64,000 nt of DNA from Pseudomonadota bacterium (GTDB lineage Bacteria; Bdellovibrionota_C; UBA2361; SZUA-149; DAOLCO01), in contig JAIYCX010000039.1 of assembly GCA_027487795.1 (NCBI GenBank), positions 355,811-419,810 of the forward strand. The letters are read 5' to 3'. The position numbers were made by a program, and so were the translations under genes. Below are positions 8,739 through 32,940 of the stretch, in pieces. A model generated the notes under the pieces. The model did no database searches and was not told the origin of the DNA. It saw only the letters and a program-made list of their open reading frames with translations. Every line of letters starts with the position of its first letter. The first letter of the stretch is position 1.

Positions 8739-11552
8739 TTATAACATTGGAACGTCACCAGGTAACCCAAATGAATACTTCTTCATAGCTTTATCTGAAC
8801 TATTCTTAATAAACCATTCCCCTGAATGCTCTCTATAAACAGTGATATCTCCAACTCCGTCCTTATCTATATCAGTTTGACATCCCGGTTGATCACCTAA
8901 GGATCCAAACTTATCTACTATAACTGATCCATTAGCATTTGCAGAGAACCAATCAATTGTATTATTTGAATTTATTCGAGTAATAACTCTATCTTTACTA
9001 GAATCATTATCCATCTTACAACTTAAAGGAGTATCTCCTGGTTGACCCCATGGAAGTGATGAAATTAAAGTCCCGTTTCCATCTTTCACATCCCAAAATC
9101 GTACTAATTGCCAAACCGCAACATATTCATCTTTACCATCTCCATTAAAATCACCAAGTATAGGATCATGTGCCTTTCCGCCTAGTTGTATTTGAGTGAA
9201 TGCTGATCTGGAACCTTGCAATGCTGCTGATCTGTTAAAACCAGAAGTAGATTGTAATGTATAAAACATCCCTATAGATTTACGATAAACTGTAAGATCA
9301 TTTATTCCATCACCATCTGTATCTCCAATCATTGGTAGATCACCTGATAGTCCCCATTGTATCGAAGTAATAACTGAGTAACCACTCCCAGATGTTCTAA
9401 AAAACCATGTCCCAGTACTTGGTCTCCAAACTGCAAGATCAGCCTTCTTGTCTCCATCAAAGTCAGCTACTTTAGGCATATCTCCTGCTAAACCAAGTTG
9501 AAATTCTTTATGCGCCATAAAATCAAATCCAGAACTAGATGTTAGTATATAAAACATTCCATTATTTGGTCTCCATACTATAAGATCGCTCTTACTATCT
9601 CCGTCTATATCTGAGTGAACGTATTTGCTGCTACTAATTATTCCAGTAGAAAATAATATAGCTTTATTATTTCCAATTAAATCCTCTCTCGCTTGATTAT
9701 TTACTACTACAAGACTATCGCCAGAACCACCATTTGCTGGAGTAATAGAGACTGTAGATGAAGCTCCATAATCATATAAAGGGCTACCAGTAAAAGTGTC
9801 TTTATAACTTATACTAATATTACCATTTGAAGTTAGTTTAAGTTGTACTTTAATTTCTTTTTCACTTCCAGCGGTCGAGTTTAAACCATAAGGTACTGAT
9901 ACCCACGTATATATTACAGAATCACTAGTAATTTTTTCCCAAACACCACCATCAGAACTTAATGAAGATGGTATTAAATCGTCGTTAAAAACATTAATTC
10001 CAGAAAATACAGAATTTGCAAAATCAGGTGTGTTGGGAGCATTGTCATTCTGACCTAATGGAATTATTCTACCGTTAGTGGAGACTGCAAATTTATTATA
10101 ATTTCCACCATAGTATGGAAATGTAAATCCTATATTCGAAATAATATAAGCGTCATCAGCTTGAGAGATTCTATTACCTAATTGAGAATCATACTCAGAT
10201 GAAATAGAGCTTAAGTTATAAACTACAGCGTCAGGTAATGGTGCTATCGGTGTCACTTGATTAATTAAAGCACGGTATGCACTAACAATACCTGCTGATC
10301 TAACAAGCCCTGTTAAAGAACTAAGAGGTTTAGAGGTATTCATTATTCTGTTTTTTAGATTACCTACGGTAAGAGATGATTCTCTAGCTAGTAATAATGC
10401 TGCAATACCACTCACATGAGGTGTTGCCATTGAAGTCCCACTTAAATTTGTATAAGTATTTTGTAGATAAGTACTAAGAATTGAAACACCAGGGGCTGCA
10501 ACGTGAACTTTTGTACCACCATAGTTAGAAAAGTTTGCTAAATTCCCTGAAGAATCAACAGCAGCAACAGAAAGTATATTATCAATATTATAATTAGCAG
10601 GGAAACTTGCTGTTACATCGTTATTCGATGAATCATTTCCTGCTGCCGCTACAAATAAAATACCATTATCGTTTGCAGCTTTAATTGCGTTTTCAAGTGT
10701 TTGAGAATAACCACCTCCACCCCAAGAGTTACTTAGAACTCTTAGATTTACTCCTCTTCTTTTCATGTTTATTGCATATTCTATACCTGATATTGCATCA
10801 GCAATAGAACCAGAACCTGAAGCATCTAAAAATTTTATACCCATTACTTTTGTTCTACTAGCTACACCAACAACACCTCTTCCATTGTTTGCTACCCCTG
10901 CAATTGTTCCAGCACAATGAGTACCATGCCCGTTATTATCTATAGGGTTTCCAGATCGAGTAATAGCATTGTATCCATTTACATCATCTACTACTCCATT
11001 ATTGTCATCATCTATGTTATTGCCTGGAATTTCATCAGTATTTACCCAGACATTAGCCTGTAAGTCTTGATGTGTGTGTTCGATACCTGTATCAACAACG
11101 CCAACGACAACACTAGGATCTCCAGTAGTTATATCCCATGCCTCAGGAGCATCTACATCTATATCAGTGCGTCCATTGTTTTGACCTATGTTGTGTAGAC
11201 CCCAAAGTTCGCCCATTCTTGGATCTGATGGCAACGTTAAAGTGTGAACTTTGTAATTTGGCTCAAAAGTGTCAATAGTTCCATTGGCAATCAAATCTTT
11301 GATATATTTATGATTTAAAGTTCTATTTTGTTTGGTAGTTACTAAAGAAGCCCCAACTTCTGGAAAATCTCTAATTTCGTTTAAGTTTAGTTGATTTGAT
11401 AATGAAGAAGCTTGAGAATGACTCAAGTTATCAGAATATTTAACAATATACTGATTTGTTACAACTTCTTGTGCAAATGTATGTGTTGATAACTGTTGAC
11501 TTATAGATATAACAGCTAAATAACCTACTACTTTTAAATACTTATACTTCAT
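8739..11552 (-). CDS. Secreted subtilisin-like serine protease (peptidase S8) with N-terminal propeptide and C-terminal FG-GAP/VCBS-type repeats
   Basis: Catalytic triad motifs VGVVDTGI, HGTHCAGTIAG and GTSMATPHVSGIAALL. Repeated DxDGDxKxDLxVWRPxxGxW units in the C-terminal third. Signal peptide. Confidence 0.8.
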   Translation of the reverse strand: MKYKYLKVVGYLAVISISQQLSTHTFAQEVVTNQYIVKYSDNLSHSQASSLSNQLNLNEIRDFPEVGASLVTTKQNRTLNHKYIKDLIANGTIDTFEPNYKVHTLTLPSDPRMGELWGLHNIGQNNGRTDIDVDAPEAWDITTGDPSVVVGVVDTGIEHTHQDLQANVWVNTDEIPGNNIDDDNNGVVDDVNGYNAITRSGNPIDNNGHGTHCAGTIAGVANNGRGVVGVASRTKVMGIKFLDASGSGSIADAISGIEYAINMKRRGVNLRVLSNSWGGGGYSQTLENAIKAANDNGILFVAAAGNDSSNNDVTASFPANYNIDNILSVAAVDSSGNLANFSNYGGTKVHVAAPGVSILSTYLQNTYTNLSGTSMATPHVSGIAALLLARESSLTVGNLKNRIMNTSKPLSSLTGLVRSAGIVSAYRALINQVTPIAPLPDAVVYNLSSISSEYDSQLGNRISQADDAYIISNIGFTFPYYGGNYNKFAVSTNGRIIPLGQNDNAPNTPDFANSVFSGINVFNDDLIPSSLSSDGGVWEKITSDSVIYTWVSVPYGLNSTAGSEKEIKVQLKLTSNGNISISYKDTFTGSPLYDYGASSTVSITPANGGSGDSLVVVNNQAREDLIGNNKAILFSTGIISSSKYVHSDIDGDSKSDLIVWRPNNGMFYILTSSSGFDFMAHKEFQLGLAGDMPKVADFDGDKKADLAVWRPSTGTWFFRTSGSGYSVITSIQWGLSGDLPMIGDTDGDGINDLTVYRKSIGMFYTLQSTSGFNRSAALQGSRSAFTQIQLGGKAHDPILGDFNGDGKDEYVAVWQLVRFWDVKDGNGTLISSLPWGQPGDTPLSCKMDNDSSKDRVITRINSNNTIDWFSANANGSVIVDKFGSLGDQPGCQTDIDKDGVGDITVYREHSGEWFIKNSSDKAMKKYSFGLPGDVPML

Positions 11553-11736: not shown

Positions 11737-12093
11737 ATGTCTTCAATAAGCCATCTAAATGCCATAAATCCAAAAGAAACTAATACTAGTACAGTCACTC
11801 TAGTGAATAGTACTGAGAATCAACAAAATAAAACTCATACATTTCAACAAAGCCTAGACAAGGCTTCTAGTATAGAAAAGACGTTTATAAATGGTATTAG
11901 CGCTCTTGATCAGTCTTTTAGAAGTACAGAAGTTAAAAGCGCAGCATTAGTAAAAAACCTTCCTAGTGAATATAAAGGTCTATTTGAATTACAACTCAGT
12001 GTCTACAAATGTAATTTTCAAACAGAAATCGTTACTAAAGTAGGTGAGTCTGTTCAAGGTGCAATTAAGAAACTCCAAAATCAAGCAGGTTAA
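11737..12093 (+). CDS. Small protein resembling the type III secretion inner-rod / FliE family (SctI/YscI-like C-terminus)
   Basis: 118 aa. The C-terminal LFELQLSVYKCNFQTEIVTKVGESVQGAIKKLQNQ aligns by eye with the YscI/FliE C-terminal helix. Sits immediately upstream of the sctRSTU genes. Confidence 0.3.
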   Translation: MSSISHLNAINPKETNTSTVTLVNSTENQQNKTHTFQQSLDKASSIEKTFINGISALDQSFRSTEVKSAALVKNLPSEYKGLFELQLSVYKCNFQTEIVTKVGESVQGAIKKLQNQAG

Positions 12094-12106: not shown

Positions 12107-12556
12107 ATGGACTCACGCGTACTTAAATTAGCTAAAATTTCAGAGAATCAAAATTTTTCTACCATTAGTGTTCAGGGTAAAAAATTATTAAATCAACGAC
12201 AAGAAATAGTTAAAAAGCAAAATAATCTAAAACTTGCTGCTGAGCAATTATTAAATGTCTATAGAGAGGTTTCTAATACTGAAGTTCAAGTTGATTCAGT
12301 TTCCTTAAAAGAAAAACATAAGTGGGCAACTCGGGCACTAAATCTGAAGCTTCTAAGTGATGATAAAGCGAATTCTTTAAATTCCGAAATAACAACACTA
12401 GAAAATGCTATTTATAAAAATAATATTAAAAAGCTTAATTCAAAAAATAAACTCAAAGAACAAGACATAAAAATCAAATCCTATAAACAAATTGAATTAA
12501 TTAAAAGGACAAATATTGAGTTAGAAGATTTAATTGAGGTTAAATTATATGTCTGA
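12107..12556 (+). CDS. Coiled-coil protein, possible SctO/FliJ-like stalk component
   Basis: 149 aa, no TM helix, heptad-rich. Position directly upstream of sctR. Confidence 0.25.
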   Translation: MDSRVLKLAKISENQNFSTISVQGKKLLNQRQEIVKKQNNLKLAAEQLLNVYREVSNTEVQVDSVSLKEKHKWATRALNLKLLSDDKANSLNSEITTLENAIYKNNIKKLNSKNKLKEQDIKIKSYKQIELIKRTNIELEDLIEVKLYV

Positions 12557-13334
12557 TTTATTTAATTCAGGAACAGGATCCTCATCTATTCCTTATATTA
12601 TCACATTATTTGCACTTGGTTTATTACCATTAGCGTTAATGGCAACAACTTCATATTTAAAAATATCTGTAGTTTTATCTGTGCTAAGAAATGCTCTAGG
12701 CGGAGGACAGATCCCATCTCAAGCTTTAAGCGGTGTATTAGCGCTTTTAATAAGTGCTTATACAATGAGTCCTGTATTTGAAAAGTGCATAAATAACTTA
12801 TCTGTTGATGCTCAAAATAAGAATATAGTGAAAAATATCCCTAAGACAATAAACTCTTCAAATATAGAATCAGTAATAAATAAAATTAAATTTACTACTG
12901 AGCCTCTTGTCTTATTTTTGAAATTGAATACTGGTCAAAAAGAGAGAATTTATTTTACTTCTTTACAGCTAAATAGATCAACAAAAACACTAGATGATAA
13001 CGAAAAACCAAAATTACTAGATTGTCAGTTAGGGAAGAATGATAAAATATATGACGATGGTTTTGAAAATTGTATCGCTCCACATGAATCTATATCGAGT
13101 TTAGTACTATCTTTTGTAAGTTCAGAATTAAGGTCTGCCTGCACGATTGGGGTTTATTTATTTATCCCATTCTTAGTTGTTGATTTAATAATATCTACAA
13201 TTTTAACGGGAATGGGGATGATGATGGTTAGTCCTATTACAATCTCCTTACCATTAAAACTTCTACTTTTTGTACTAAGCGATGGCTGGAGATCGCTAAT
13301 TGAAAGCTTGGTACTTTCATATAAGGTATTATAG
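12534..13334 (+). CDS. sctR: Type III secretion export apparatus protein SctR (FliP/YscR family)
   Basis: LMATTSYLKISVVLSVLRNALG and the near-invariant FIPFLVVDLIISTILTGMGMMMVSPITISLPLKLLLFVLSDGW. No long FliP-type signal peptide. VSP and LLLF residues match YscR better than FliP. Carries a roughly 45-aa insertion. Confidence 0.8.
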   Translation: MRLNYMSDLFNSGTGSSSIPYIITLFALGLLPLALMATTSYLKISVVLSVLRNALGGGQIPSQALSGVLALLISAYTMSPVFEKCINNLSVDAQNKNIVKNIPKTINSSNIESVINKIKFTTEPLVLFLKLNTGQKERIYFTSLQLNRSTKTLDDNEKPKLLDCQLGKNDKIYDDGFENCIAPHESISSLVLSFVSSELRSACTIGVYLFIPFLVVDLIISTILTGMGMMMVSPITISLPLKLLLFVLSDGWRSLIESLVLSYKVL

Positions 13335-13341
13335 AAAATAT

Positions 13342-13602
13342 ATGGAAAATCTTAGTATTCATATTACCGAAGCGATTAAAATACTTTTAATAGGACTTGG
13401 TATTCCACTAGTACTTTCAGTTTGTTTAGGTTTTTTAACTTCCTTACTTCAAGCAGCTACTCAACTTCAAGATCAAATTTTTTCATTTTTCCCTAAAGTA
13501 GTCTTATTAGCACTTTTAATAATACTCGGTGGAGAATTATTTTTAAATTTATTGGTTGAGAATCTTCAACAATTACTTATCAATATAAGGTATGTAAATT
13601 AG
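13342..13602 (+). CDS. sctS: Type III secretion export apparatus protein SctS (FliQ/YscS family)
   Basis: 87 aa, two TM helices, conserved LxxxQAATQLQDQ motif. Start taken at MENLS after the sctR stop. Confidence 0.75.
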   Translation: MENLSIHITEAIKILLIGLGIPLVLSVCLGFLTSLLQAATQLQDQIFSFFPKVVLLALLIILGGELFLNLLVENLQQLLINIRYVN

Positions 13603-13612
13603 GAAATTTAAA

Positions 13613-14431
13613 ATGACATCTGAATTAAAGCAAATTGATTTTAATTTCATCTATAATTACATATCAGTACTAGCTTTAGTTTCAATTAGATTTGCTACTG
13701 CGTTCTCGGTTATGAAGTCAATTAGAGGTATACTAGGAATGTCTGGAGTGAGTATACTTTCATTATGCTTCTCATTTTATTCTATTGGTACAAACTTAAG
13801 TTTATCAGTATTAAATAATACAAAAACTTTTTTTTATATTTTACTAACTAAAGAAATTCTTATTGGCTTATTCATTGGACTGAGTATGAGTTTAGTTTTT
13901 GAGCTAATACCTTTCTGCGGAAGATTATTTGATACTTTTAGAGGAGTTCAGTTTGCAGAACAAATGGCACCTGAGATGGGACCAAGGGATTCTGAGCTTG
14001 AAGTTTTTGGTGGATACTTAACTTTAGCATTATTTTTTTCGCCTCAAATATTTCCCTATTTTATAGAGTACTTATTTAAGATCAATAAATACTGTGGTGT
14101 TCTTTCAGAACAGGAAAACAATATAATGCTTTTTGAAGGCTTAAAGATTAATGCATCTACTATGTATGGCTTTATAGGGCAGATATTCATAACAGCTATA
14201 TTTGTTACTTTACCGCTAGTTGTATTATCTATGATGCTCGAAATTGGTTTTTCAATCATTTCAAAAGTTTCTCCAAAATTCCAAATAGGTTTAGATCTTG
14301 GTTACTTAAGGGCAGGGGCGGGAGTATTTATACTTTTTGCGGTTATTTTAAATGGGGAGACAGCAGAACAACTCCTCGTTAAGTATATTTCTAGCTATAT
14401 ATATAGTCTCCAGTCTATACTTAAGGTCTAG
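13613..14431 (+). CDS. sctT: Type III secretion export apparatus protein SctT (FliR/YscT family)
   Basis: 272 aa polytopic membrane protein between sctS and sctU. FliR-like hydrophobicity pattern. Confidence 0.7.
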   Translation: MTSELKQIDFNFIYNYISVLALVSIRFATAFSVMKSIRGILGMSGVSILSLCFSFYSIGTNLSLSVLNNTKTFFYILLTKEILIGLFIGLSMSLVFELIPFCGRLFDTFRGVQFAEQMAPEMGPRDSELEVFGGYLTLALFFSPQIFPYFIEYLFKINKYCGVLSEQENNIMLFEGLKINASTMYGFIGQIFITAIFVTLPLVVLSMMLEIGFSIISKVSPKFQIGLDLGYLRAGAGVFILFAVILNGETAEQLLVKYISSYIYSLQSILKV

Positions 14432-14440
14432 GTTAGTCTT

Positions 14441-15256
14441 ATGTCAGGTGAAAAGAACTTTGAACCTAGTCAAAAAAAGCTCAAAAAAGCTAATGAAAGT
14501 GGAAACATAGCTAAGGCTGCTGAGCTAACTGCATTTTCTACCATAAGTTATTGGTATCTATTATTAATATCCTCTACTTGGTGGGCGCACTATATTTTTA
14601 ATTTCTATCATAAAGTATTATCGGAAATTGACTTATTTAGTGAAGAATTGCTAGTATCTAATTTTCGAGAAGGTTCAATCTTGGTGATTTTAGCAATCTT
14701 GGTTTGGGGTATTGGAGCAATGTTATTTACTAGCTTCGCACTCTTACCACAAGTTGGATGTAGATTTACTTTTTCTCAATTAGAGATAAAGTTTTCTTTT
14801 CTCAATGTTGTTAAAGGAATTCAGAGAATCCTAAAAGGACATGAAAATGGAAAAATTTTCATTGGAATGTTTAGTGAGATGATACAACTTATTCTGTTTG
14901 GCTCTATTTGTAGCTTAATTATTTGGAAACAGATTAAGTACCATGTAACATTATCTTTAACCTTGGATGGTTCAGAACCAAATATAATTCTCTTGTTGAT
15001 GAGAGAAAGTTTAGTAAATTGTGTTTTTGAACTGACTATTATTAGTGGTGTTTATAGTATTTTTCGATATTCACTTAATAAAAAGAGACTTAAGAAAGAA
15101 TTGATGATGGATATCGAAGAACTTAAAAAAGAATTTAAAGATGATGAAGGTGATTCTTTAGTTAAGGGACAAAGAAAGTCTTTGCATCATGAAATTCTTG
15201 CTCATGAGATGATAGAGAACGTAAAAAACGCAAAGGTATTAGTGGTTTCAGACTAG
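14441..15256 (+). CDS. sctU: Type III secretion switch protein SctU/FlhB, N-terminal membrane domain plus linker only; ends exactly where the NPTH motif would begin
   Basis: N-terminus MSGEKNFEPSQKKLKKANESGNIAKAAEL matches the YscU/FlhB start (MSGEKTEQPTPKKL...). Four TM helices. The linker ...EELKKEFKDDEGDSLVKGQRKSLHHEILAHEMIENVKNAKVLVVSD is followed by a stop. Confidence 0.8.
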   Translation: MSGEKNFEPSQKKLKKANESGNIAKAAELTAFSTISYWYLLLISSTWWAHYIFNFYHKVLSEIDLFSEELLVSNFREGSILVILAILVWGIGAMLFTSFALLPQVGCRFTFSQLEIKFSFLNVVKGIQRILKGHENGKIFIGMFSEMIQLILFGSICSLIIWKQIKYHVTLSLTLDGSEPNIILLLMRESLVNCVFELTIISGVYSIFRYSLNKKRLKKELMMDIEELKKEFKDDEGDSLVKGQRKSLHHEILAHEMIENVKNAKVLVVSD

Positions 15257-15281
15257 TTGTCACTTTTGTAAGGCCCTAAAA

Positions 15282-17162
15282 ATGAAAAATTTCCTGGATA
15301 TTTTTAAAGAAGAGACTTCTCTTCCAGGTCAGATTAGGTCTATCGCAGCCCAACTAGGGGTTTATTTTAAAGCTAGTCATTTGGTTATTAGTTTATCTGA
15401 TACAGCATTTCTTTCTGCAGTCTCTCCAGTAGAATGGGTCAAAGAAGGATCTATTATTAAAGAAGACATTTCTACTAATCTATTAAAAGAATTAAAACTA
15501 AGACGAATATCTGGTCTTACATATCCTGAACAAAATAGACAAAATTTTATATCAGGAAATAATATTAGTAATAATAATTTCGTACTGTTTGCATTTTCAA
15601 TATCTTCAGGAATACCTGAAATTGAAGTTGCTATAGTAAGAGACGAAGAGTTTACTAGATTAGAGCTTAATTATTTAAATCAAATTCTTTCAGAAATTGC
15701 TCCTTACATTTCTAAAAGTCGTAAAGATTTATTGGGAGAACTCAAACAACAAGAAAAACAATTAACTGCACTTTATAGATTATCTCATGAGTTATCAGCT
15801 TTCTTATCATTAGATGAAATTTATCAGAAAGCATTTGAGATAATGAAATCGGAACTTGGTATTGATAGATTTTGGTTAGGCCTATTAAATGAAACTGGAA
15901 CTCGTTTAATAGGGGCCTCTGCTTTTGGTTCTGGTTGGAAAAGAAAACTTATTGAAATTAACATAGATGTTAGTGGGGACAGACACCCAATTAGTAAAGT
16001 AATACAAACTAAAAGACCTATTATATTAAAAGAAACTGGCTCAATACTTAGAGGACTTGGCATTAAAAGATTTATTTTGAGAAATGAAATTGATTCCGTA
16101 GGTCTTGTTCCATTAGTTGCAGGTGGTCAAGTATTAGGTTTACTTGCTTTTGAAGGTGAAAGAGAAGGAGTTGTTATTTCTAATAAAAAACTTTCATTAC
16201 TTTATAATTTTGCAAGTGAATTAGCTTCCGTTCTATTAGCCAAGAAATTAGAAGAAAGAGTATTAGCTGGGGAAACAATGAGAGCAGCTGGTTTGTTAGC
16301 TTCAGGTATCGCTCATAATTTTAACAATGTACTTCAAGGAATTTTAGGTCAAGCTTCTTTAATAGAGCTTTATTCTGAAAAGCCAGAACAGGTTAAAAAA
16401 TCTAGTGCTATAATTTCGGAAGCTGCAACAAAGGGTGCGAGTCTTGTTAAGCAGTTACTTAGCTTCGCACATTTAGAAGAAGCTGTGCCTAATATACTTG
16501 ATGTAAATTTATTAATTGAAAGAAGTAAGGCGAGCTTTCAAAGAACCTTAAAAAACAAGCAGTATATCAAATATCAACTAGAATCTAATCTTCCAAAGGC
16601 ATATGTAGATTCGTCCCATTTAATTAGAATCATCCAGGTTTTACTTTCTAATGCTAGAGATGCAATGCCTGAAGATGGTAGAGTTGAAATATTGTCTGAT
16701 TATATTGTAGTCGATAAAAATTCACCTCATTATGAAGTACCATTTGGCAGATATGTTCGAATAGGTGTCAGAGATAACGGAATAGGAATGGATTTAGAAA
16801 CTAAGAAAAGATGTTTTGAACCATTTTTTACAACTAAAAATACGGATCCAAGTACAGGCTTAAGTTTATCTGGTGGCGGAATGGGCTTGTCAGCTGCTTT
16901 TGCATTAGCTAGAAAGAACGGAGGTCGATTAGTAGTCGACAGTAGAAAAGGTCACGGCAGTTTGTTTACTCTTTATATTCCTGAAGAATCTGCTTTACAA
17001 AATAAAGTAGCTACAAATAAAGTAAGTCCAGATAAAGTTACCTCAAATAAATCAATTCAGGAAAAAGTCGAAGTAATTCAAACTGAAAATAAAATTGATA
17101 GCACTATTCAAATTGAAAACTTAGAATCAGCTAGTAATATTAAAAATATTAAACATGAATAA
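15282..17162 (+). CDS. Cytoplasmic sensor histidine kinase with GAF-like N-terminal domains (HisKA + HATPase_c)
   Basis: H-box LASGIAHNFNNVLQGILG. N-box LLSNARDAM. G-boxes VRDNGIGMD and GLSLSGGGMGLS. No TM segments. No response regulator adjacent. Confidence 0.8.
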   Translation: MKNFLDIFKEETSLPGQIRSIAAQLGVYFKASHLVISLSDTAFLSAVSPVEWVKEGSIIKEDISTNLLKELKLRRISGLTYPEQNRQNFISGNNISNNNFVLFAFSISSGIPEIEVAIVRDEEFTRLELNYLNQILSEIAPYISKSRKDLLGELKQQEKQLTALYRLSHELSAFLSLDEIYQKAFEIMKSELGIDRFWLGLLNETGTRLIGASAFGSGWKRKLIEINIDVSGDRHPISKVIQTKRPIILKETGSILRGLGIKRFILRNEIDSVGLVPLVAGGQVLGLLAFEGEREGVVISNKKLSLLYNFASELASVLLAKKLEERVLAGETMRAAGLLASGIAHNFNNVLQGILGQASLIELYSEKPEQVKKSSAIISEAATKGASLVKQLLSFAHLEEAVPNILDVNLLIERSKASFQRTLKNKQYIKYQLESNLPKAYVDSSHLIRIIQVLLSNARDAMPEDGRVEILSDYIVVDKNSPHYEVPFGRYVRIGVRDNGIGMDLETKKRCFEPFFTTKNTDPSTGLSLSGGGMGLSAAFALARKNGGRLVVDSRKGHGSLFTLYIPEESALQNKVATNKVSPDKVTSNKSIQEKVEVIQTENKIDSTIQIENLESASNIKNIKHE

Positions 17163-17433
17163 AAAAAATAATACTAATACGGCAGTTTCACTTAGTTACG
17201 ATCCACTAGATATGAATGCCCCAACAGTTTCTGCTATCGGTAGTGGTAAATTAGCTGAAGAAATGAAAAAAATAGCTTTTAAATACAATGTACCTATAAA
17301 AAAATCTTCAAATCTCGCTAATAAGCTTTCTAAAATACAAGTCTCCGAGGAAATTCCAGCTAGTTTATATGATGAAGTTGCTAAAGTGATTTTAAGCACT
17401 AAAAGACCCTTAAAAATAACTAAAAATAAATAG
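17155..17433 (+). CDS. Stand-alone SctU/FlhB C-terminal cytoplasmic domain protein (begins after the NPTH position; PTH motif absent)
   Basis: AVSLSYDPLDMNAPTVSAIGSGKLAEEMKKIAFKYNVPIKKSSNLANKLSKIQVSEEIPASLYDEVAKVI aligns with the FlhB-CC consensus AVALKYDEKKMxAPKVVAKGxG...NVPI...LARxLY...IPxELYxAVAEVL. The ATG overlaps the kinase stop codon (ATGAATAA). Confidence 0.7.
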   Translation: MNKKNNTNTAVSLSYDPLDMNAPTVSAIGSGKLAEEMKKIAFKYNVPIKKSSNLANKLSKIQVSEEIPASLYDEVAKVILSTKRPLKITKNK

Positions 17434-25957: not shown

Positions 25958-28900
25958 ATGGGGGAATTTAGTAATAAAAATGGGCAGGTTATAGCTCCTT
26001 CCTCTGACATTGAGGTAGGGAAAGACACGCCCTTAACTCTCCCTAGTGCGCCAGATAACAACCAAGATCAAAGTCAAAAAGACTCACTTAGCTTTCCCAA
26101 ATTAGACCCAAATGTCAAACTTAATACAAAATCAGAAAAACTCTTAGAAGAGCTTGCGATCTCCTTAGGCAATGCTAAATTCGACCGTGGCTTTAACATG
26201 ACCTTAGGCCAAGCCACTCACGATAATAATAACTACTCATCTCGACTACAAGTAGCAAATCAACAGATCTCAGATTTAGAACTAAAGATAAAATTTGAAC
26301 TAATAAAAAGTAACACTGCTCCCGAAGAACGAAAAGCCCAATTTGATAAGGTACAAAAATTTGCCGCTACGCGTGAGCATGAAGGACTGAATCAATTCCA
26401 AGCAGCAAAAACTGAGTACCAAAGAAGAACAGTTCAAGAAGCTGAAAAAGCAAGAAGAGAAGGAGGAGCAAGTTACGCACTAGGGGAGGTATTAACAAAA
26501 GCCACAAAATCAGCCTCTAGTCTTATTCCAACAACTAAAGAATCTGTAGAAATATTAAGCAGTGCAATATTCTCAGGCGGGGAAGGAATAGAAAAAGTAA
26601 GACTTAAAAACCTCTCACAAAGAGGAGAGTCCGTTCTTGGAACAACAGAAGAGTTTGCTAAAGGAAGTAATTCATCATTTAGCAATGCAGTCGCCCTAAT
26701 TGGAGTAGGCCTAGCCCCACTAGAGAAGGTATCAGGGATGACCCTAAACCCAGCTCTAGAGAGTGTAGACATTGGCCTTAGAGCCTCAAGAGTTGCAAGT
26801 TATAATACATTTTCGGGTAAGGATGCTCAGATTAATTACAGTGACTATAAAGAGCTAGAAGATAGAGAAGGTCTACTAAAAGCAGCGAAGCTTACTATGG
26901 ACGGTGCAAAGATAGCACTAGGAGCAGCAGCTCTTGGACCTAGCTCTTTGTCTCAATTAAGTCAGCCCATGTTAGTCTCGGGAGGGATGGGGTATGCCGG
27001 TGCCTTATCAGATGAGCTACTATCAAAAGAAGGTTTTAAATTAGGACGCTTTTTAGAGCATGGTTTTACTGGGACAGCAGATAGTTTTCTGTTCATGGGT
27101 GGGATTACGGGAATTGGGCATATAGCAGAGAAGACTGGAGCACTACATAAGATGTCATCTGTAAAGACATTCTTAAGTCTTGAGAATGGCGTTCAGAAGG
27201 AGAAGAAACTAGAGGCTATTCATAAAAGCTTTAAGGGACTAGAGATTACAAATGATGAGGCAAGGTTTGTAAGTAATCTAGTGGGTGAGATGAAAATGGG
27301 GCTAAGTGGGAAAATAGACCTGATTGATTCTCTACCAGATGTACAAAAAAGTCTGAATATTTTTTTAGAGAAGGTAGGAGATTTAAGCGCGCTAGAGATC
27401 TATGAGAAGCTTAAAAAGGATCCAGAGTATAGAAGGATGTTGGCTGGGGCAGTACTTAAGGTTGGAGTATCAGGGTTTGATGCTTTTGATGTTAAGAGCG
27501 GGACTAAGGGGATGGAGAGTCTGGAACAAACAGGAAGGATGGAAGATGGGAAGGAATTAGGGAAGTTTGTATCTTCTAAGAGTGGGAACTTAGAGAGTAA
27601 TGGGGACTTAGATTTTAGAAAAAATGGTGAGAGTATTTCAATTACCAATAGAGGAGAAGTTCCTATAGAAGTTCTTGCAGTTAATGGTAACGAATACAAA
27701 GGGTACTTTACACATACTAGAGATTTCTTTTATTTATTAGATAGAGAAGATCTTTCTTTAGCATACGGGGATATCTTAACATCAAGACAAGAAGTCGATC
27801 CAAACGGGACAGAGCATGTTGAATCATTTGTCGATAAAAATACAAAGCTAATTTTTTCTTATAAACAAAATAAAGAAAATTTATTACAAGAGAAGAAATG
27901 GAGAAGTTCTTTATTAGCACATGAGAATGAAAATAGGTCTGATATACTAGCTGGTAGAGCAGTTGATGAGAGGCGCTCATTTGAAACTCAGTTTCGATTT
28001 TTGGATAAGAATATAGATCAGGTTACTTTAAATAAAAGAATAAATGGTATCTTAGAGAGTAGTTATCTGGGGGCGGAAGGCTTGAGTTTGGCGGCAAGTA
28101 AAAAAGATAATATCGAATCAACTATCAATTTTCCTGAATTAGAATATATTTTAATTAATCTACAAGATCTAGTCAAAGAAGATAATTTTGAAGAAGGTGC
28201 TATTGAAAAACTGGACGATCTAATAACTCCTGGGAGTAGCAAACTAGTTGCACAGGGAATACTTACCTTAATAAGAAACTCTTCAAATCAATTATCTATT
28301 AAGATTTTAGACAACTTAGAGTTAATTTGCGCATATTTGATCTCATGTGATAACAACCAGATATCACGACCTATCTCTGGTATCATAGTATATGAAATCT
28401 TGCCGACGCTCTGTCAGGATACAAATGTTTCTCCATATATAAGATTAAAAGCAAAGACTATTCAAGAGAGACTAGTGTGCGAATCCTACTCATCATCTTT
28501 TGATCCTCGCTCAGTAAATAACGAAATAGGCGGCAAAGCTATATATGAAGATTCACCATTCTTTCCTGAAAGAGTTACTCTAAAAGATATCGCTAGAATT
28601 CGCAAATTAGCCAAGGATACTATATTTATCTGTAGAGAAGACGGCACTCCTGTTGCATTTAGTTATAGTTATGAAAACATTAATTCTGGAGACCCTAACT
28701 TATTGCAGCCTAGGCTATTAAAATCACTGAGAGATGAATTAAAACAGATAGAGCAAGGGGAACTTTCAAATCATATTTTACCTTGGGTAGCAATGGATCT
28801 TTATAGACATGAAGTATTATCTGGATTTTCTGAAGATTCTATAGAAGAATTTATGAACAGGATTATGCCTTCATCAATACCAAAAGAGATGATTACAGAG

Positions 28901-30487
28901 CTAGAGAAGGAATTATTTTATAAAAATATATATTTGCATAGGAGTATATATTCAAAATTAGTAATGATATTAGAAGAATTAGAAGATTCAAAAAAAGTCT
29001 TAACAGATGAAAGCAATGAAGCACCACTCGATAGCCAAAGTAATACCCAAGGTAGTATCGTAAATCCTTATTACTTCGATCCTAGTAAATATAATGAGCG
29101 AGAAAATCTTAAGGCACTGTATTTTAATGAAATGGATAATGAAAAGCTTAAACTAGTAAGACGTGAATTTGCAAATATTTTTCACGAAGAAAACTTTAAC
29201 GATGACCCGCTATATGACTTACTATCTTTAAATGAAGTTTATATATATTCCGATGATATGTACAATGCTCGTAATATTTGGGGAAATTACCTACGTAATG
29301 GACAAGAATCAAGCTTAAGCAAATTTAGGGCAGCTTTAAGAGAACGCTTAGATCACTTAATTTCATTAACAAACCAAACAAGAAGTACTTTCAATATACT
29401 AATGGATCTAGAACAAGAACGTTCGGAAGTATTCCCATTTAAAACTGAACATATTGAAAATCTATACTCCTTATTTCAAGAAGTACATCAAGGACCATTA
29501 AGATCTCATATTGAAGCTGAATTTGATATCGATCTTTCAGAAATAACTTTCAGATCACAGTTATATTTTCTTCAATTTTTACAAACTAGAGATACTGAAG
29601 GATTTATTGCATTTAAAAATGCTTTAAATAAATATCCTAATCAGAAATATAAAATTATAGAAGCCTTTGTTGCTAATGCAGAAAAGGCAACATATGCGAA
29701 ATATTTAATAGCTTTACCAAATAATTTACCAGAAACAATAGTTTCAAAAATCTTAGATAAATATCTCGAAATAATAGAATCCGCACAAGGGCTAGAAGAA
29801 CCACAAATACAAAAAGCCATCCGCTCAGCAAATCACTTTTTACATGCATATTCTATTAAAGCTAGATCTTCGGATAATCCAGAAAAAGTTATACTAAACC
29901 TAAACAAGCTCCATCATGAAATTCTAGCACTAGGAGTCCTAATAAGAGACTTAAGACGCACAGGTGCAATTAGTAATATTACTGATTTGCAAGGTCTTCA
30001 ATTTTCTTCCACATGCTCAAAAGATATTACAGATGATATTCGAAATGAAATAGCTGAACTATATCGCAGTAACTGGGAAAGTGATGCCTCATACAGTACA
30101 GAACATCGTGAAAAAGTTTTAGCAGCTCATGACAGGGCTATGAAGAATCCTGATACAAAGATCTACTCTTTTGAAACTAGCTCAGAAGTTCTAGCTTTTA
30201 TCAGAGTTGATTATCTTCCAGATGGCACAATTCACATGGGGGGATTGAATCAACGTCCAGAATTAGACCTTTCCTCTATAGGTATAACCTTACTCGAAGA
30301 AGTTATAAAACTAGAAAATCTTACTTCTGATATATTTATTGAAGTTACTAAAAAGAAAACTGAATTAATAGTTCAATATGAAAAGCTTGGATTTGTTATA
30401 GAAGCAGACAAAGTTATTATAAATTGGGAAGGAACAGGTGCGGATTTAGTAGTAATGCGCTTGCCTAGAGGTTCAATTATAAAGTAA
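25958..30487 (+). CDS. Very large (1509 aa) protein with C-terminal GNAT-type acetyltransferase domain; candidate secreted effector/toxin
   Basis: Long uninterrupted ORF with host-like AT-rich codon usage. No signal peptide. Ser/Asn/Gln-rich N-terminus. C-terminal GNAT motifs (...IHMGGLNQRPELDLSSIGITLLEEVI... and ...QYEKLGFVIE). Confidence 0.7.
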   Translation: MGEFSNKNGQVIAPSSDIEVGKDTPLTLPSAPDNNQDQSQKDSLSFPKLDPNVKLNTKSEKLLEELAISLGNAKFDRGFNMTLGQATHDNNNYSSRLQVANQQISDLELKIKFELIKSNTAPEERKAQFDKVQKFAATREHEGLNQFQAAKTEYQRRTVQEAEKARREGGASYALGEVLTKATKSASSLIPTTKESVEILSSAIFSGGEGIEKVRLKNLSQRGESVLGTTEEFAKGSNSSFSNAVALIGVGLAPLEKVSGMTLNPALESVDIGLRASRVASYNTFSGKDAQINYSDYKELEDREGLLKAAKLTMDGAKIALGAAALGPSSLSQLSQPMLVSGGMGYAGALSDELLSKEGFKLGRFLEHGFTGTADSFLFMGGITGIGHIAEKTGALHKMSSVKTFLSLENGVQKEKKLEAIHKSFKGLEITNDEARFVSNLVGEMKMGLSGKIDLIDSLPDVQKSLNIFLEKVGDLSALEIYEKLKKDPEYRRMLAGAVLKVGVSGFDAFDVKSGTKGMESLEQTGRMEDGKELGKFVSSKSGNLESNGDLDFRKNGESISITNRGEVPIEVLAVNGNEYKGYFTHTRDFFYLLDREDLSLAYGDILTSRQEVDPNGTEHVESFVDKNTKLIFSYKQNKENLLQEKKWRSSLLAHENENRSDILAGRAVDERRSFETQFRFLDKNIDQVTLNKRINGILESSYLGAEGLSLAASKKDNIESTINFPELEYILINLQDLVKEDNFEEGAIEKLDDLITPGSSKLVAQGILTLIRNSSNQLSIKILDNLELICAYLISCDNNQISRPISGIIVYEILPTLCQDTNVSPYIRLKAKTIQERLVCESYSSSFDPRSVNNEIGGKAIYEDSPFFPERVTLKDIARIRKLAKDTIFICREDGTPVAFSYSYENINSGDPNLLQPRLLKSLRDELKQIEQGELSNHILPWVAMDLYRHEVLSGFSEDSIEEFMNRIMPSSIPKEMITELEKELFYKNIYLHRSIYSKLVMILEELEDSKKVLTDESNEAPLDSQSNTQGSIVNPYYFDPSKYNERENLKALYFNEMDNEKLKLVRREFANIFHEENFNDDPLYDLLSLNEVYIYSDDMYNARNIWGNYLRNGQESSLSKFRAALRERLDHLISLTNQTRSTFNILMDLEQERSEVFPFKTEHIENLYSLFQEVHQGPLRSHIEAEFDIDLSEITFRSQLYFLQFLQTRDTEGFIAFKNALNKYPNQKYKIIEAFVANAEKATYAKYLIALPNNLPETIVSKILDKYLEIIESAQGLEEPQIQKAIRSANHFLHAYSIKARSSDNPEKVILNLNKLHHEILALGVLIRDLRRTGAISNITDLQGLQFSSTCSKDITDDIRNEIAELYRSNWESDASYSTEHREKVLAAHDRAMKNPDTKIYSFETSSEVLAFIRVDYLPDGTIHMGGLNQRPELDLSSIGITLLEEVIKLENLTSDIFIEVTKKKTELIVQYEKLGFVIEADKVIINWEGTGADLVVMRLPRGSIIK

Positions 30488-30489
30488 TG

Positions 30490-31764
30490 CTATAAATCAG
30501 TAATTGTATAAGAATCAGCAGATAATTGCTCTAATACCTTCTCTGATATCATTCCTTCTCTTACTGTAGAATATGGAATTAGAATTTTTGTATTTTTTTT
30601 GGTTTTTGTAATATTTGCAATACCTTCTCTCAGAATATTTATCTCATCATTATAGTTTAAAACTTTTCTATCTATAAGAAAGTTATGAATAAGTGGAACT
30701 TTTTTATCTAGTCTAAATTCTAGTAGAGCTAATATCTTATCATTCCAAATCGCTAGATGGCAGATACTACTATCTGGGATGATAAATTGATCAAGCATTT
30801 TATGTCTACCTTCTGTTACAAGTTTTTCAACAAGGTATTCTCTAGCTCTAAAAAACATATCACTAGTTTCACATTTACGAAGCATAAAACCAGTATTCTT
30901 AATATCAGGCATCGGTGCTTTATTTATTAATAAGAGTAAACTAGTAAGTTCTTCAACTTCATCTGTGGTAAAATTCTCAGCCGCATTAGCTAGTTTATCC
31001 GAAAATATTTCTATTAAATTATTGTAAATACTTAACCCATTATTAGTTAAAGAATAAATCTTCTGTCGTTTATCTCCCTTTGGTGAAAATTTACTAATAA
31101 TATTATTATTTTCAAAATCACTTAGGTATCTAGAAATCTTACTTGTAGAAAAAGGCAGGTTATCATCTAAATCTTTAAATCCTATCCCAGATTTGCTTTT
31201 TGCTATATCATTTAAAATTTGAAACTGAGTTAAGTTAAACTCATTTCCCATATAACTTTCACCTAACATACCTAAGGCAATTACTGCTCTTCTCTGTTCT
31301 GGTGCAAACAATCCTTCCCCTTCGCGAAGTTTTTCAGGGGGTGCTTTTAAGCCATTATTTAGTTTACGAAACAACTCAACCATCCGTAAATGTTCCCTTG
31401 GGGATAGTAAGCTGCAGCCTAGTTGTGAAATACGACTATTTAATTGATCTGCTTCAGTTAGAAGTTTTGTTCCATATTCAGTGAAAACTAAACGACGACC
31501 ACGTTTGTCTTCAAATGTTGTTTCCATACTAAGACAACCCATGCTTACTAGCTGATTTAAAAGTCTTGAAATCTTACTTTTTGAAATTCCTAGTAAATTA
31601 ACTAAGTCACTAGCAGATCTATTTGTATCGTATGCGAGGTGCGATAAAATTATGGATTCAACTGGAGACAAATCAGAAGGCAATAACATCCTAATAGCCC
31701 TCATTTTGCGCTGAGTAAGCAGGATTGAATCATGCAATTGAGTATATATATTTAGTGTAGCCAT
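30490..31764 (-). CDS. Transcriptional regulator with two MarR-type winged-HTH domains and an extra C-terminal domain
   Basis: Two repeats of the wHTH pattern (SDLVNLLGISKSKISRLLNQLVSMGC...RGRRL and FKDLDDNLPFSTSKISRYLSDFENNNII...DKRQKIYSLT). Confidence 0.6.
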   Translation of the reverse strand: MATLNIYTQLHDSILLTQRKMRAIRMLLPSDLSPVESIILSHLAYDTNRSASDLVNLLGISKSKISRLLNQLVSMGCLSMETTFEDKRGRRLVFTEYGTKLLTEADQLNSRISQLGCSLLSPREHLRMVELFRKLNNGLKAPPEKLREGEGLFAPEQRRAVIALGMLGESYMGNEFNLTQFQILNDIAKSKSGIGFKDLDDNLPFSTSKISRYLSDFENNNIISKFSPKGDKRQKIYSLTNNGLSIYNNLIEIFSDKLANAAENFTTDEVEELTSLLLLINKAPMPDIKNTGFMLRKCETSDMFFRAREYLVEKLVTEGRHKMLDQFIIPDSSICHLAIWNDKILALLEFRLDKKVPLIHNFLIDRKVLNYNDEINILREGIANITKTKKNTKILIPYSTVREGMISEKVLEQLSADSYTITDL

Positions 31765-31765
31765 G

Positions 31766-31960
31766 TTCGTATTTTATGATGATAGTTTTATAATAATAGT
31801 TTCATTCCGATATGCAATTATAAACTGGAAGTACTTAGTAATTATAAATCTATAAATAATATAGCTATTTAGACATTCTAAAACTCACATCAATAATCAT
31901 GATCAAATCAGTATAATACTACTAGATCGTCGGTGCGCGATGGGAATTGAAGCGCTGATA
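31766..31960 (+). repeat. Promoter-like repeat A, copy 1 (roughly 195 bp, 55-bp core identical to the copy at 33480-33534)
   Basis: taatagtttcattcc...aatcagtataatactactagatcgtcggtgcgcgatgggaattgaagcgctgata. The core contains an extended -10-like cagTATAAT. Confidence 0.6.
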
Positions 31961-32312: not shown

Positions 32313-32372
32313 TCCTACCGTTGAAAGGATACGCTATTGAGGGCATTTAATTTGCCCTAGAAAGAAAGTATT

Positions 32373-32891: not shown

Positions 32892-32940
32892 AGTAAAAAG
32901 CTCTGCTTAGAATAAAAAACTAAGCAGGAGTTAAAATAAC

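What the first reader, a model, noticed from the sequence alone, without database searches (positions are those of the whole stretch)
14441..17433. SctU/FlhB is split exactly at the NPTH autocleavage site, with a GAF sensor kinase gene between the halves
The sctU/flhB N-terminal ORF (14441-15256) stops at ...NAKVLVVSD*, exactly where canonical FlhB/SctU proteins continue with the NPTH autocleavage motif. The matching C-terminal domain (FlhB-CC equivalent, AVSLSYDPLDMNAPTV...NVPI...EIPASLYDEVAKVI) is a separate 92-aa gene at 17155-17433 that lacks the PTH residues. The two halves are in different reading frames. They are separated by a complete 626-aa cytoplasmic GAF-histidine kinase gene, and the kinase stop overlaps the C-domain ATG (ATGAATAA), which suggests translational coupling. 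Canonical SctU/FlhB is made as one chain and self-cleaves at N-P to switch substrate specificity. A genetically pre-split form with a signalling kinase wedged in between suggests a different, possibly regulated, substrate-switching mechanism. I have not seen this arrangement described.
Basis: partly seen in the sequence, partly recalled or inferred. Interest (0 to 1): 0.8.

Follow-up and report, generated by a model that had tools for sequence, protein, structure and literature searches.

The report
Two-gene SctU switch enclosing a kinase
In this bacterium, and in more than a hundred related sequence clusters, the type III secretion "switch" protein SctU/FlhB is encoded as two genes that break at the point where the normal protein cuts itself, with a conserved sensor kinase gene always between them; I found no paper describing this.

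Summary
ORF 14441-15256 (271 aa) matches Pfam Bac_export_2 positions 2-256 of 335. ORF 17155-17433 (92 aa) matches positions 257-332. Aligned to Salmonella FlhB, the break lies within two residues of the N269|P270 autocleavage bond, and neither piece has NPTH. A 626-aa soluble GAF histidine kinase lies between them, and its stop overlaps the C-piece ATG by 8 nt.

It is not an assembly error. A second assembly is identical over 11 kb. Eight divergent lineages (28-46% identity in the N piece) carry the same order: sctRST, sctU(N), PAS/GAF kinase, sctU(C), usually followed by an FHA/YscD-like gene. Of the 148 best 50%-identity representatives found with an N-piece profile, 107 are truncated at the same strand without NPTH, and they separate cleanly from the 41 full-length forms. 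All pieces are under purifying selection. The kinase core is the best-conserved protein in the cluster.

Most likely this is a functional two-chain SctU of a divergent, probably non-flagellar, T3SS export gate in a Bdellovibrionota-like lineage. The two chains would mimic the post-cleavage state, with the kinase co-inherited as part of the system. What the kinase does is inference. No paper describing the arrangement was found. The known FlhX standalone C-domain is the closest precedent. Verdict: new variant of a known kind.

The parts
11737..12093 (+). 118-aa first gene of the operon; probable inner-rod (SctI-like) protein
   Evidence: It is conserved at the same position in L001, L002 and L004 (alignment A3). 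Its profile aligns with the 136-aa gene of L025 (hhalign E = 1.7e-4). That L025 gene gives a sub-threshold PF17001 YscI/SctI match (E = 2.3e-4, 22 bits against a cutoff of 32.4). The window protein itself has no significant Pfam or PDB hit. The assignment is tentative.
12107..12556 (+). 149-aa protein of unknown role, with no hydrophobic segment
   Evidence: It is conserved in position in L001, L002 and L004, though only 23-24% identical (A4). It has no family hit and no TM-like segment, so it is not FliO-like. Its end overlaps the sctR start.
12534..13334 (+). sctR (FliP family) export-gate subunit, with an insertion of about 45 residues
   Evidence: PF00813 E = 6e-49. It passes the NCBIfam NF009438 EscR/YscR/HrcR cutoff (186.5 > 179), whereas the flagellar fliP model scores 130.9 against a cutoff of 217. 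Gene callers start it at 12549 (261 aa).
13300..13602 (+). sctS (FliQ family)
   Evidence: PF01313 E = 9e-13. Gene callers give 86 aa, starting at 13342.
13613..14431 (+). sctT (FliR family)
   Evidence: PF01311 E = 7e-20. The SctT model scores slightly above the FliR model.
14441..15256 (+). sctU N piece: four-helix membrane domain, linker and CN helices, ending in the unpaired beta-1 strand KVLVVSD
   Evidence: PF01312 positions 2-256 of 335. It aligns to FlhB residues 8-268. The AF2 model has pLDDT 89.8, four long helices and a coil at the C-terminus. The best structural match is FlhB in the FliPQR-FlhB complex, 6s3l_K. Orthologues of 254-285 aa end at the same strand.
15282..17162 (+). soluble GAF-HisKA-HATPase_c sensor histidine kinase between the two sctU pieces
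   Evidence: Pfam domains. Catalytic motifs are intact. It is present between the halves in all 8 lineages examined. Its kinase core is the most conserved protein of the cluster. dN/dS is 0.06 between L002 and L004.
17155..17433 (+). sctU C piece (CC domain) without NPTH; its start overlaps the kinase stop by 8 nt
   Evidence: PF01312 positions 257-332. It aligns to FlhB residues 269-344. The AF2 model (pLDDT 84) matches post-cleavage CC chains in the PDB with TM-score 0.75-0.87. Orthologues of 85-120 aa occupy the same position.
17509..18489 (+). FHA / YscD-cytoplasmic-domain protein with a single C-terminal membrane anchor and no periplasmic domain
   Evidence: PF00498 E = 1e-16 and PF16697 E = 7e-12. 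The only hydrophobic segment is residues 296-326. An equivalent gene follows the C piece in L001, L002, L004, L006, L007, L025 and L026.

Best explanation
The locus is the export-gate operon of a divergent, probably non-flagellar, type III secretion system in a low-GC, probably Bdellovibrionota, bacterium. The operon reads sctI-like, unknown, sctR, sctS, sctT, sctU-N, kinase, sctU-C, FHA.

**What is shown.** In this whole T3SS family the switch protein SctU is made as two polypeptides that correspond to the two autocleavage products of canonical SctU/FlhB. The N piece carries the membrane domain, the linker, the CN helices and beta-strand 1. The C piece carries the CC domain from beta-strand 2 onwards.

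**What is inferred.**
- The two chains reassemble non-covalently by strand complementation, as cleaved SctU does. The gate would then be permanently in the 'cleaved' conformation without any Asn-cyclisation chemistry. That would explain why NPTH has decayed in both pieces.
- The PAS/GAF histidine kinase, which is inherited with the gate and translationally coupled to the C piece, is a dedicated component. It probably links a cytoplasmic signal to the supply or engagement of the C piece, or to expression of the system.
For: - **Complementary matches.** The Pfam matches are complementary (positions 2-256 and 257-332) and so are the FlhB alignments (residues 8-268 and 269-344).
- **Folds.** The N piece is predicted as an FlhB-like four-helix membrane domain with an unpaired C-terminal strand. 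The C piece is predicted as the post-cleavage CC chain.
- **Conserved order.** The same gene order is found in eight lineages: the window, L001, L002/L004, L006, L007, L025, L026 and L027. GC content across these loci ranges from 34% to 59%.
- **Family size.** 107 of the 148 best representatives are truncated at the same strand without NPTH. In a neighbour-joining tree all 41 full-length forms make one pure clade, which fits a single origin of the split.
- **Selection.** dN/dS between L002 and L004 is 0.08 (N piece), 0.06 (kinase), 0.22 (C piece) and 0.05 (FHA).
- **Co-inheritance.** Pairwise distance matrices of the N piece, C piece, kinase, SctR and SctT correlate (r = 0.69-0.84). The kinase core is 65-80% identical in the near clade and 34-59% in distant pairs, compared with 58-65% and 38-51% for SctR.
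- **Tight spacing.** The gap from the N piece to the kinase is 0-26 nt. The kinase and C piece overlap by 4-31 nt in five of the six loci measured; L027 has a 1-nt gap.
- **Non-flagellar flavour.** SctR passes the EscR/YscR/HrcR cutoff. The N piece scores higher on the SctU model than on the FlhB model (125 against 109 bits). SctI-like and YscD_cpl-domain genes flank the gate genes.
Against: - No physical interaction was modelled or measured.
- No SctV, SctN, SctJ, SctQ or secretin gene lies in the window or within 10 kb of the cluster in any relative. Completeness and function of the machine are therefore unverified.
- The window also holds a flagellar hook gene. SctS scores better on the FliQ model, and FliO-like genes occur in the clusters of L025 and L026. 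A flagellar role is not excluded.
- The C pieces cluster with other standalone CC proteins, not with the CC domains of the nearest full-length forms. Fission cannot be told apart from recruitment of an FlhX-like gene.
- No cognate response regulator is in the window. No kinase::C-piece fusion was found among 107 hits. The kinase's link to the switch therefore rests on synteny alone.
Confidence: 0.65

Rival explanations
1. This is not a fission. An ancestral sctU lost its CC domain by truncation, and a pre-existing standalone FlhX-like CC paralogue, already linked to a kinase, was recruited to replace it. The functional outcome is the same but the history differs.
For: - Standalone CC proteins are widespread in other phyla. 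They share the C piece's anatomy: Met, a short basic head, the AVAL.Y strand, and no NPTH.
- In the CC tree the 11 known-context C pieces sit in a 42-member clade with 31 other standalone proteins and none of the 41 full-length CC domains.
- The best NCBIfam hit of the C piece is the standalone family TIGR00789.
Against: - The N piece stops 1-21 residues (median 4) after beta-1, and the C piece starts just before beta-2. This is what a fission at the cleavage site would give.
- The two pieces are always in the same operon and their distances co-vary (r = 0.69).
- The TIGR00789 score of 58 is far below its cutoff of 117, and barely above the FlhB (55) and SctU (52) scores.
- An 84-column tree has little resolving power.
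Confidence: 0.2
2. The cluster is the organism's flagellar export gate (FliPQR plus a split FlhB), not a non-flagellar T3SS.
For: - A FlgE hook gene lies at 42580-43842.
- SctS scores higher on the FliQ model.
- FliO-like genes precede fliP in L025 and L026.
Against: - SctR passes the injectisome-family cutoff and fails the fliP cutoff. The N piece and SctT score higher on the Sct models.
- The flanking genes are SctI-like and YscD_cpl/FHA, which have no flagellar counterpart.
- No flhA, fliI, fliF or rod gene is nearby in any locus.
- FliO is also reported in Myxococcota non-flagellar T3SS operons (PMC12403147).
Confidence: 0.15
3. The 92-aa protein no longer works with the N piece. It has been taken over as a partner or adaptor of the kinase, and the truncated SctU acts alone.
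For: - The C piece is translationally coupled to the kinase, not to the N piece.
- The kinase core is extraordinarily conserved.
- dN/dS of the C piece (0.22) is the highest in the operon.
Against: - The N piece retains the CN helices and the beta-1 strand, whose only known role is to pair with CC. That strand is nearly invariant across 107 clusters.
- The C piece keeps the full CC fold.
- No kinase::CC fusion was seen.
Confidence: 0.1
4. The stop and the frame changes are sequencing or assembly errors, or the gene is a decaying pseudogene interrupted by an inserted kinase gene.
For: None found. This is the default suspicion for any split gene.
Against: - An independent assembly is identical.
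- The same break and the same inserted kinase occur in eight divergent lineages and 107 clusters.
- Purifying selection acts on every piece.
- The kinase's catalytic motifs are intact.
Confidence: 0.01

Closest known systems
Canonical SctU/FlhB (YscU, EscU, SpaS/Spa40, FlhB; Pfam PF01312)
   Same: The membrane domain, linker, CN helices and CC fold are the same. The gene follows sctRST in the same way. After autocleavage the canonical protein also exists as two non-covalently associated chains that break at the same place.
   Different: Here the two chains come from two genes in different reading frames, 1.9 kb apart. The NPTH motif is absent from both. No self-cleavage is needed or possible. 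A kinase gene sits between the pieces.
FlhX (H. pylori HP1575; P. putida PP_4329) and NCBIfam TIGR00789 standalone FlhB-CC homologues
   Same: These are soluble CC-domain proteins of about 85-100 aa that lack NPTH and begin just before beta-2. [quoted passage not shown]
   Different: FlhX co-exists with a complete, self-cleaving FlhB and acts as an accessory or spare part. Here the partner SctU has no CC domain of its own, so the standalone protein is presumably obligatory. It is also always coupled to a kinase gene inside the gate operon. Its TIGR00789 score is below the cutoff.
Myxococcales 'Myxo' or 'needleless' T3SS* (Abby & Rocha 2012; M. xanthus mxan_2434-2464)
   Same: It is a non-flagellar-type gate in predatory bacteria formerly classed as delta-proteobacteria. 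No secretin or obvious needle gene lies next to it. FliO-like genes occur in some members. An SctI-like gene is present.
   Different: The Myxo loci described contain the ATPase, SctJ and SctV next to the gate. Here these genes are absent from the cluster. The papers I read do not mention a split SctU or an embedded kinase. The short forms found here have amino-acid compositions unlike very high-GC Myxococcus. The relationship was not tested by phylogeny.
FliR-FlhB fusion proteins (NCBIfam NF009411; e.g. Clostridium)
   Same: This is another lineage-specific rearrangement of the gate genes that keeps the parts but changes how they are joined.
   Different: It goes in the opposite direction, fusion instead of fission. 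The FlhB part retains its CC domain.

Membership tests
SctU/FlhB (PF01312, TIGR01404/TIGR00328) | N-terminal membrane domain of four helices that wraps the SctRST/FliPQR core | tested here: met
   PF01312 positions 2-256. The AF2 model has four long helices at residues 27-61, 68-105, 139-174 and 180-220. The best PDB fold match is FlhB in 6s3l_K.
SctU/FlhB (PF01312, TIGR01404/TIGR00328) | Cytoplasmic C-domain (CN + CC) on the same polypeptide | tested here: not met
   The N piece stops after beta-1. CC is a separate gene 1.9 kb downstream in another frame. Each half scores far below the equivalog cutoffs (125 against 358; 52 against 358).
SctU/FlhB (PF01312, TIGR01404/TIGR00328) | NPTH autocleavage motif | tested here: not met
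   The N piece ends VLVVSD. The C piece has NNTN at the aligned position. The relatives L001 and L002 have RETT and VISS there. None of the 107 truncated forms has the motif at that site, whereas most of the 41 full-length forms do.
SctU/FlhB (PF01312, TIGR01404/TIGR00328) | CC-domain fold (beta-sheet packed by helices) | tested here: met
   The AF2 model (pLDDT 84) superposes on the CC chains of FlhB, PscU, Spa40, EscU and YscU with TM-score 0.75-0.87 and rmsd 1.1-1.5 A.
SctU/FlhB (PF01312, TIGR01404/TIGR00328) | Encoded directly after sctR-sctS-sctT | tested here: met
   The genes are contiguous from 12534 to 15256.
FlhX / TIGR00789 standalone FlhB-CC proteins | Short soluble protein homologous to FlhB-CC only | tested here: met
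   92 aa, no hydrophobic segment, PF01312 positions 257-332 only.
FlhX / TIGR00789 standalone FlhB-CC proteins | Reaches the curated TIGR00789 score | tested here: not met
   58.4 bits against a cutoff of 117.35.
FlhX / TIGR00789 standalone FlhB-CC proteins | Co-exists with a complete, self-cleaving FlhB/SctU | tested here: inconclusive
   The SctU in the same operon is truncated. Whether a full-length FlhB exists elsewhere in the genome cannot be seen from a 64-kb window.
Non-flagellar T3SS (injectisome-type, including the Myxo type) | Core set SctC/J/N/Q/R/S/T/U/V | tested here: inconclusive
   Only R, S, T and U (in two pieces) are present, plus SctI-like and YscD_cpl-like genes. No V, N, J, Q or C was found in the window or within 10 kb in relatives. 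The rest of the genome is not available.
Non-flagellar T3SS (injectisome-type, including the Myxo type) | Gate proteins closer to Sct than to flagellar models | tested here: inconclusive
   SctR passes the EscR/YscR/HrcR cutoff, and SctU-N and SctT score higher on the Sct models. SctS scores higher on FliQ. No phylogeny against reference sets was run.
Two-component sensor histidine kinase (HisKA/HATPase_c) | H-box histidine and N, G1, G2 ATP-binding boxes | tested here: met
   HNFNN at residue 345, NARDA at 457, DNGIG at 498 and GGGMGL at 531. HNFNN is conserved in all six orthologues checked.
Two-component sensor histidine kinase (HisKA/HATPase_c) | Cognate response regulator | tested here: not met
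   No receiver domain was found in the kinase or in the window ORFs scanned. In L025 a weak Response_reg protein lies next to the cluster on the opposite strand.

The most novel reading that the evidence does not exclude
The kinase is a structural and regulatory subunit of the secretion gate. It would hold or release the free CC polypeptide, or control its synthesis through translational coupling, in response to a cytoplasmic ligand sensed by its PAS/GAF domains. Docking of CC onto the truncated SctU would then switch export on or change substrate class. That would make it a signal-gated, reversible version of the one-way autocleavage switch, in an undescribed kinase-containing T3SS family of predatory bacteria.
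Probability: 0.15. Interest if true: 0.9.

Novelty: new variant of a known kind. Interest (0 to 1): 0.7.

Why it matters
SctU/FlhB autocleavage at NPTH is treated as a near-universal hallmark of type III secretion. Why cleavage is needed is still debated.

A large natural family that makes the two products from separate genes, and has lost NPTH, is a natural experiment. It argues that what matters is having two chains and the conformation they adopt, not the cleavage chemistry or its timing.

It also gives a tractable system for asking whether CC association can be regulated. The kinase is invariably embedded in the gate operon and is better conserved than SctR. That points to a direct link between two-component signalling and a T3SS export gate, which I did not find described.

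On the practical side, annotation pipelines name both pieces 'EscU/YscU/HrcU family ... switch protein' or 'FlhB'. Profile-based T3SS detectors may score the halves below their cutoffs. This family is therefore easy to miss or to dismiss as degraded.

Tried and rejected
- **Wasted look-ups.** Three encoding-contig look-ups failed because of wrong minus-strand coordinates or a different called start.
- **Genome scan.** The GTDB genome scan with the N-piece alignment used very specific patterns and returned one locus, L004, a Bdellovibrionota MAG. It gives no measure of taxonomic breadth.
- **Metagenome scan.** It returned 17 loci. Fifteen are full-length ORFs carrying NPTH, one carries NPSH, and one runs off its contig end. 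They are 23-27% identical, mostly from high-GC contigs, and useful only as controls.
- **Fusion search.** A search for kinase::CC fusion proteins with a 12-sequence C-piece profile found none among 107 hits.
- **Organism name.** Cluster look-ups returned no names for the window's proteins.
- **Upstream 118-aa protein.** A profile search against the PDB gave only a chance hit.
- **Promoter and terminator scan.** Counts across the operon were at background level, so it is uninformative.
- **CC-domain tree.** It could not separate fission from recruitment.
- **Literature.** Eight full-text searches and several papers gave no description of a split SctU/FlhB. Thiery et al. 2022 (Cell Reports), on the M. 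xanthus T3SS*, is not held in the library.
- **Assembly error or pseudogene.** Considered and rejected on the conservation evidence.


Full report
**1. The observation**

The window has 33.6% GC. On the + strand between 11737 and 18489 it carries a tight run of genes:
- a 118-aa gene and a 149-aa gene
- sctR, sctS and sctT
- a 271-aa ORF (14441-15256)
- a 626-aa ORF (15282-17162)
- a 92-aa ORF (17155-17433)
- a 326-aa ORF (17509-18489)

Pfam assigns FliP, Bac_export_3 and Bac_export_1 to the three gate genes. The 271-aa ORF matches Bac_export_2 (PF01312) over profile positions 2-256 of 335 (E = 4e-42). The 92-aa ORF matches the same family over positions 257-332 (E = 3e-18). The 626-aa ORF has GAF, HisKA and HATPase_c domains. 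The 326-aa ORF has FHA and Yop-YscD_cpl domains.

Pairwise HMMER alignments to solved structures fix the position of the break. N-piece residues 4-269 align to Salmonella FlhB residues 8-268, so its last two residues, S270 and D271, fall on N269 and P270. C-piece residues 5-79 align to FlhB 269-344, with N-N-T-N lying over N-P-T-H. The break is therefore within about two residues of the N|P scissile bond, and the motif is gone from both sides.

The three genes are in three different reading frames. The kinase TAA overlaps the C-piece ATG within ATGAATAA.

**2. It is real and under selection**

- The Logan assembly of run SRR16126830 is identical to the window over 11,098 nt covering the whole cluster.
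- A word-indexed search with the N piece found two relatives of 269 aa, 40% and 34% identical. Their contigs show the same order: R, S, T, U(N), a GAF kinase of 909-911 aa, U(C) of 101-103 aa, FHA/YscD, nadC, and a Cu-oxidase_4 gene.
- A GTDB scan added a near-identical copy of one of them, in a MAG labelled Bdellovibrionota.
- The three N pieces end VLVVSD, VLIVSK and VLVVSE. The C pieces start with a basic head followed directly by the strand AV(A/S)L.Y.
- Between the two close relatives L002 and L004, approximate dN/dS is 0.08 (N piece), 0.06 (kinase), 0.22 (C piece) and 0.05 (FHA).

**3. It is a family-wide architecture, not a peculiarity of this genome**

An exhaustive HMMER search of 1.84 billion 50%-identity representatives with the three-sequence N-piece profile gave 52 hits at E <= 1e-30 and 2,841 at E <= 1e-10.

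Of the 148 best representatives other than the queries:
- 107 are shorter than 305 aa. They match over their whole length and stop 1-21 residues (median 4) after the conserved strand [KR]A[KR]V-V/I/L-V/I-V. None has NPTH at that site.
- 41 are 340-395 aa. Most of them carry NP(T/S/E/K)(H/R/E) at positions 260-281.

In a neighbour-joining tree of the shared region, all 41 full-length forms make one pure clade. A single split in the tree separates short from long, which fits one origin of the truncation.

I looked at the context of more distant members:
- L006 has an N-piece tail, a 911-aa kinase, a 101-aa C piece and FHA.
- L007, a 59% GC contig, has a GAF kinase, a 120-aa C piece and FHA.
- L025, from the 259-aa class at 50% GC, has R, S, T, U(N), a 1086-aa PAS/GAF kinase, an 88-aa C piece and FHA/YscD.
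- L026 and L027, from the 278-aa class, have R, S, T, U(N), a kinase of 951-954 aa and a C piece of 85-91 aa. L026 also has FHA.

That makes eight independent lineages, and every one has a kinase between the halves. The gap from the N piece to the kinase is 0-26 nt. The kinase and C piece overlap by 4-31 nt in five of the six loci measured; L027 has a 1-nt gap.

**4. The kinase behaves as a core component**

All orthologues checked keep the H-box HNFNN. The window protein also keeps the N, G1 and G2 boxes.

Percent identity of each protein between loci:

| Protein | Near clade | Distant pairs |
|---|---|---|
| Kinase core (last 330 residues) | 65-80 | 34-59 |
| SctR | 58-65 | 38-51 |
| N piece | 35-46 | 28-38 |
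| C piece | 46-49 | 33-44 |

The kinase core is therefore better conserved than SctR. The sensor part varies: one GAF plus an unassigned N-terminal region in the window, and PAS plus two or three GAF domains elsewhere.

Pairwise distance matrices of the N piece, C piece, kinase, SctR and SctT correlate (r = 0.69-0.84), as expected for genes inherited together.

No receiver domain was found in the window. No kinase::CC fusion was found among 107 C-piece homologues.

**5. Structure**

With 51 homologues, AF2 models the C piece at pLDDT 84. It has strands at residues 9-14 and 24-30 and helices at 32-43, 52-59 and 69-82. Foldseek places it on the B chains, which are the post-cleavage CC polypeptides, of FlhB (3b0z, 3b1s), PscU, Spa40, EscU and YscU. 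TM-scores are 0.75-0.87 and rmsd is 1.1-1.5 A.

With 67 truncated homologues, the N piece models at pLDDT 89.8. It has four long helices, two CN helices, and a final stretch, KVLVVSD, left as coil. Its only meaningful PDB match is FlhB in the FliPQR-FlhB complex, 6s3l_K.

In the solved structures of cleaved SctU-C, strand beta-1 (before the Asn) pairs with beta-2 (after PTH). This is established knowledge from the EscU, SpaS and YscU crystal structures. The two gene products here carry exactly those two complementary elements. That they reassemble is inference. I could not run a complex prediction.

**6. What kind of T3SS**

Evidence pointing to a non-flagellar system:
- SctR passes the NCBIfam EscR/YscR/HrcR cutoff and fails the fliP cutoff. 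The N piece and SctT score higher on the Sct models.
- The first gene of the operon is homologous to the L025 gene that weakly matches YscI/SctI.
- The last gene carries the YscD cytoplasmic FHA domain. It has only a C-terminal membrane anchor and no periplasmic ring domain.

Evidence that leaves a flagellar role open:
- SctS scores higher on FliQ.
- Weak FliO-like genes precede sctR in L025 and L026. However, FliO has been reported in Myxococcota non-flagellar T3SS operons (PMC12403147).
- The window contains a lone flgE.

No sctV, sctN, sctJ, sctQ or secretin gene is in the window or within 10 kb of the cluster in any relative. The Myxococcales 'Myxo' loci described by Abby and Rocha have the ATPase, SctJ and the full secretion apparatus together (PMC3459982), so the organisation here differs.

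I conclude that this is probably a non-flagellar, possibly 'needleless'-type system. It cannot be proven from these data.

**7. Comparison with what is known**

Canonical FlhB/SctU cleaves itself between Asn and Pro of NPTH. Non-cleaving mutants fail to export late substrates (PMC7911332).

Standalone CC homologues (FlhX; TIGR00789) are known. [quoted passage not shown] My own recollection of Wand et al. 2006 is that FlhX permits export when the FlhB CC domain is deleted.

The standalone proteins retrieved here from other phyla share the C piece's anatomy. In a CC-domain tree the C pieces group with them and not with full-length CC domains. I therefore cannot tell whether the arrangement arose by fission or by truncation plus recruitment.

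Three things are new relative to FlhX:
- The partner SctU has no CC domain of its own.
- This is fixed across a large clade.
- A sensor kinase is an invariant insert between the two genes.

Eight full-text searches found no description of this. The primary paper on the M. xanthus T3SS* is not in the library, so prior mention cannot be fully excluded.

**8. Verdict**

It is a new variant of a known kind. It should interest T3SS specialists as a natural 'pre-cleaved' switch with an embedded kinase. Interest 0.7.

Noticed in passing
window 42580-43842 (+): A flagellar hook protein gene (FlgE: Flg_bb_rod, FlgE D1 and D2, Flg_bbr_C domains) stands alone between a lysyl-PG-synthase-like membrane protein gene and a MiaB-like radical-SAM gene. 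No other flagellar gene is nearby. It implies that the organism is, or was, flagellated. That bears on whether the split gate is a second T3SS.
   Followed up: partly
window 15282-17162 and orthologues in L001, L002, L025, L026, L027: The kinase core of the embedded histidine kinase is more conserved than SctR, normally the best-conserved T3SS protein: 65-80% against 58-65% identity in the near clade. Its sensor region varies from one GAF domain to PAS plus three GAF domains.
   Followed up: partly
window 12534-13334 (+): SctR carries about 45 extra residues relative to the FliP profile: 235 residues cover 190 profile positions, and the match splits into two stretches in the NCBIfam models. 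The extra residues form an insertion in the middle of the protein.
   Followed up: no
window 17509-18489 (+): The protein with the YscD-type FHA domain has a single hydrophobic segment at its extreme C-terminus (residues 296-326) and no periplasmic domain. It cannot form an SctD-type periplasmic ring. Ser/Thr protein kinase genes lie close to the cluster in L026 and L027.
   Followed up: partly
window 51290-51514 (-): A cobalamin riboswitch (Rfam RF00174, 56 bits) lies directly upstream of a TonB-dependent receptor gene at 49369-51270. A cobalamin adenosyltransferase gene is at 46790-47413. This looks like an ordinary B12-uptake regulon.
   Followed up: no
window 25958-30487 (+): A 1509-aa ORF has no Pfam match at E <= 1e-4.
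   Followed up: no
window 8739-11552 (-): A 937-aa subtilase (Peptidase_S8) with FG-GAP repeats is transcribed divergently from the T3SS operon, 185 bp upstream of its first gene. Relatives do not share this neighbour.
   Followed up: no
window 30490-31764 (-) and 31765-34820: A 424-aa protein has two MarR-type winged-helix domains. It is followed by about 3 kb containing only two ORFs of at least 100 aa (172 and 196 aa), neither with a family match.
   Followed up: no
C-piece homologues and N-piece tails: The short N-terminal head of the standalone CC proteins is net positive in 98% of 41 sequences (median 10 residues). In the N-piece tails, the first residue after the strand is usually G, N, E, D or S, and the second is K or R in 60 of 106 sequences. 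The meaning of this is unknown.
   Followed up: partly
P0085: One 293-aa representative ends in a Pro/Arg/Ser/Trp-rich stretch, which looks like a frameshifted high-GC full-length gene. This shows that a few 'short' database entries are artefacts. I excluded it from the tree.
   Followed up: no
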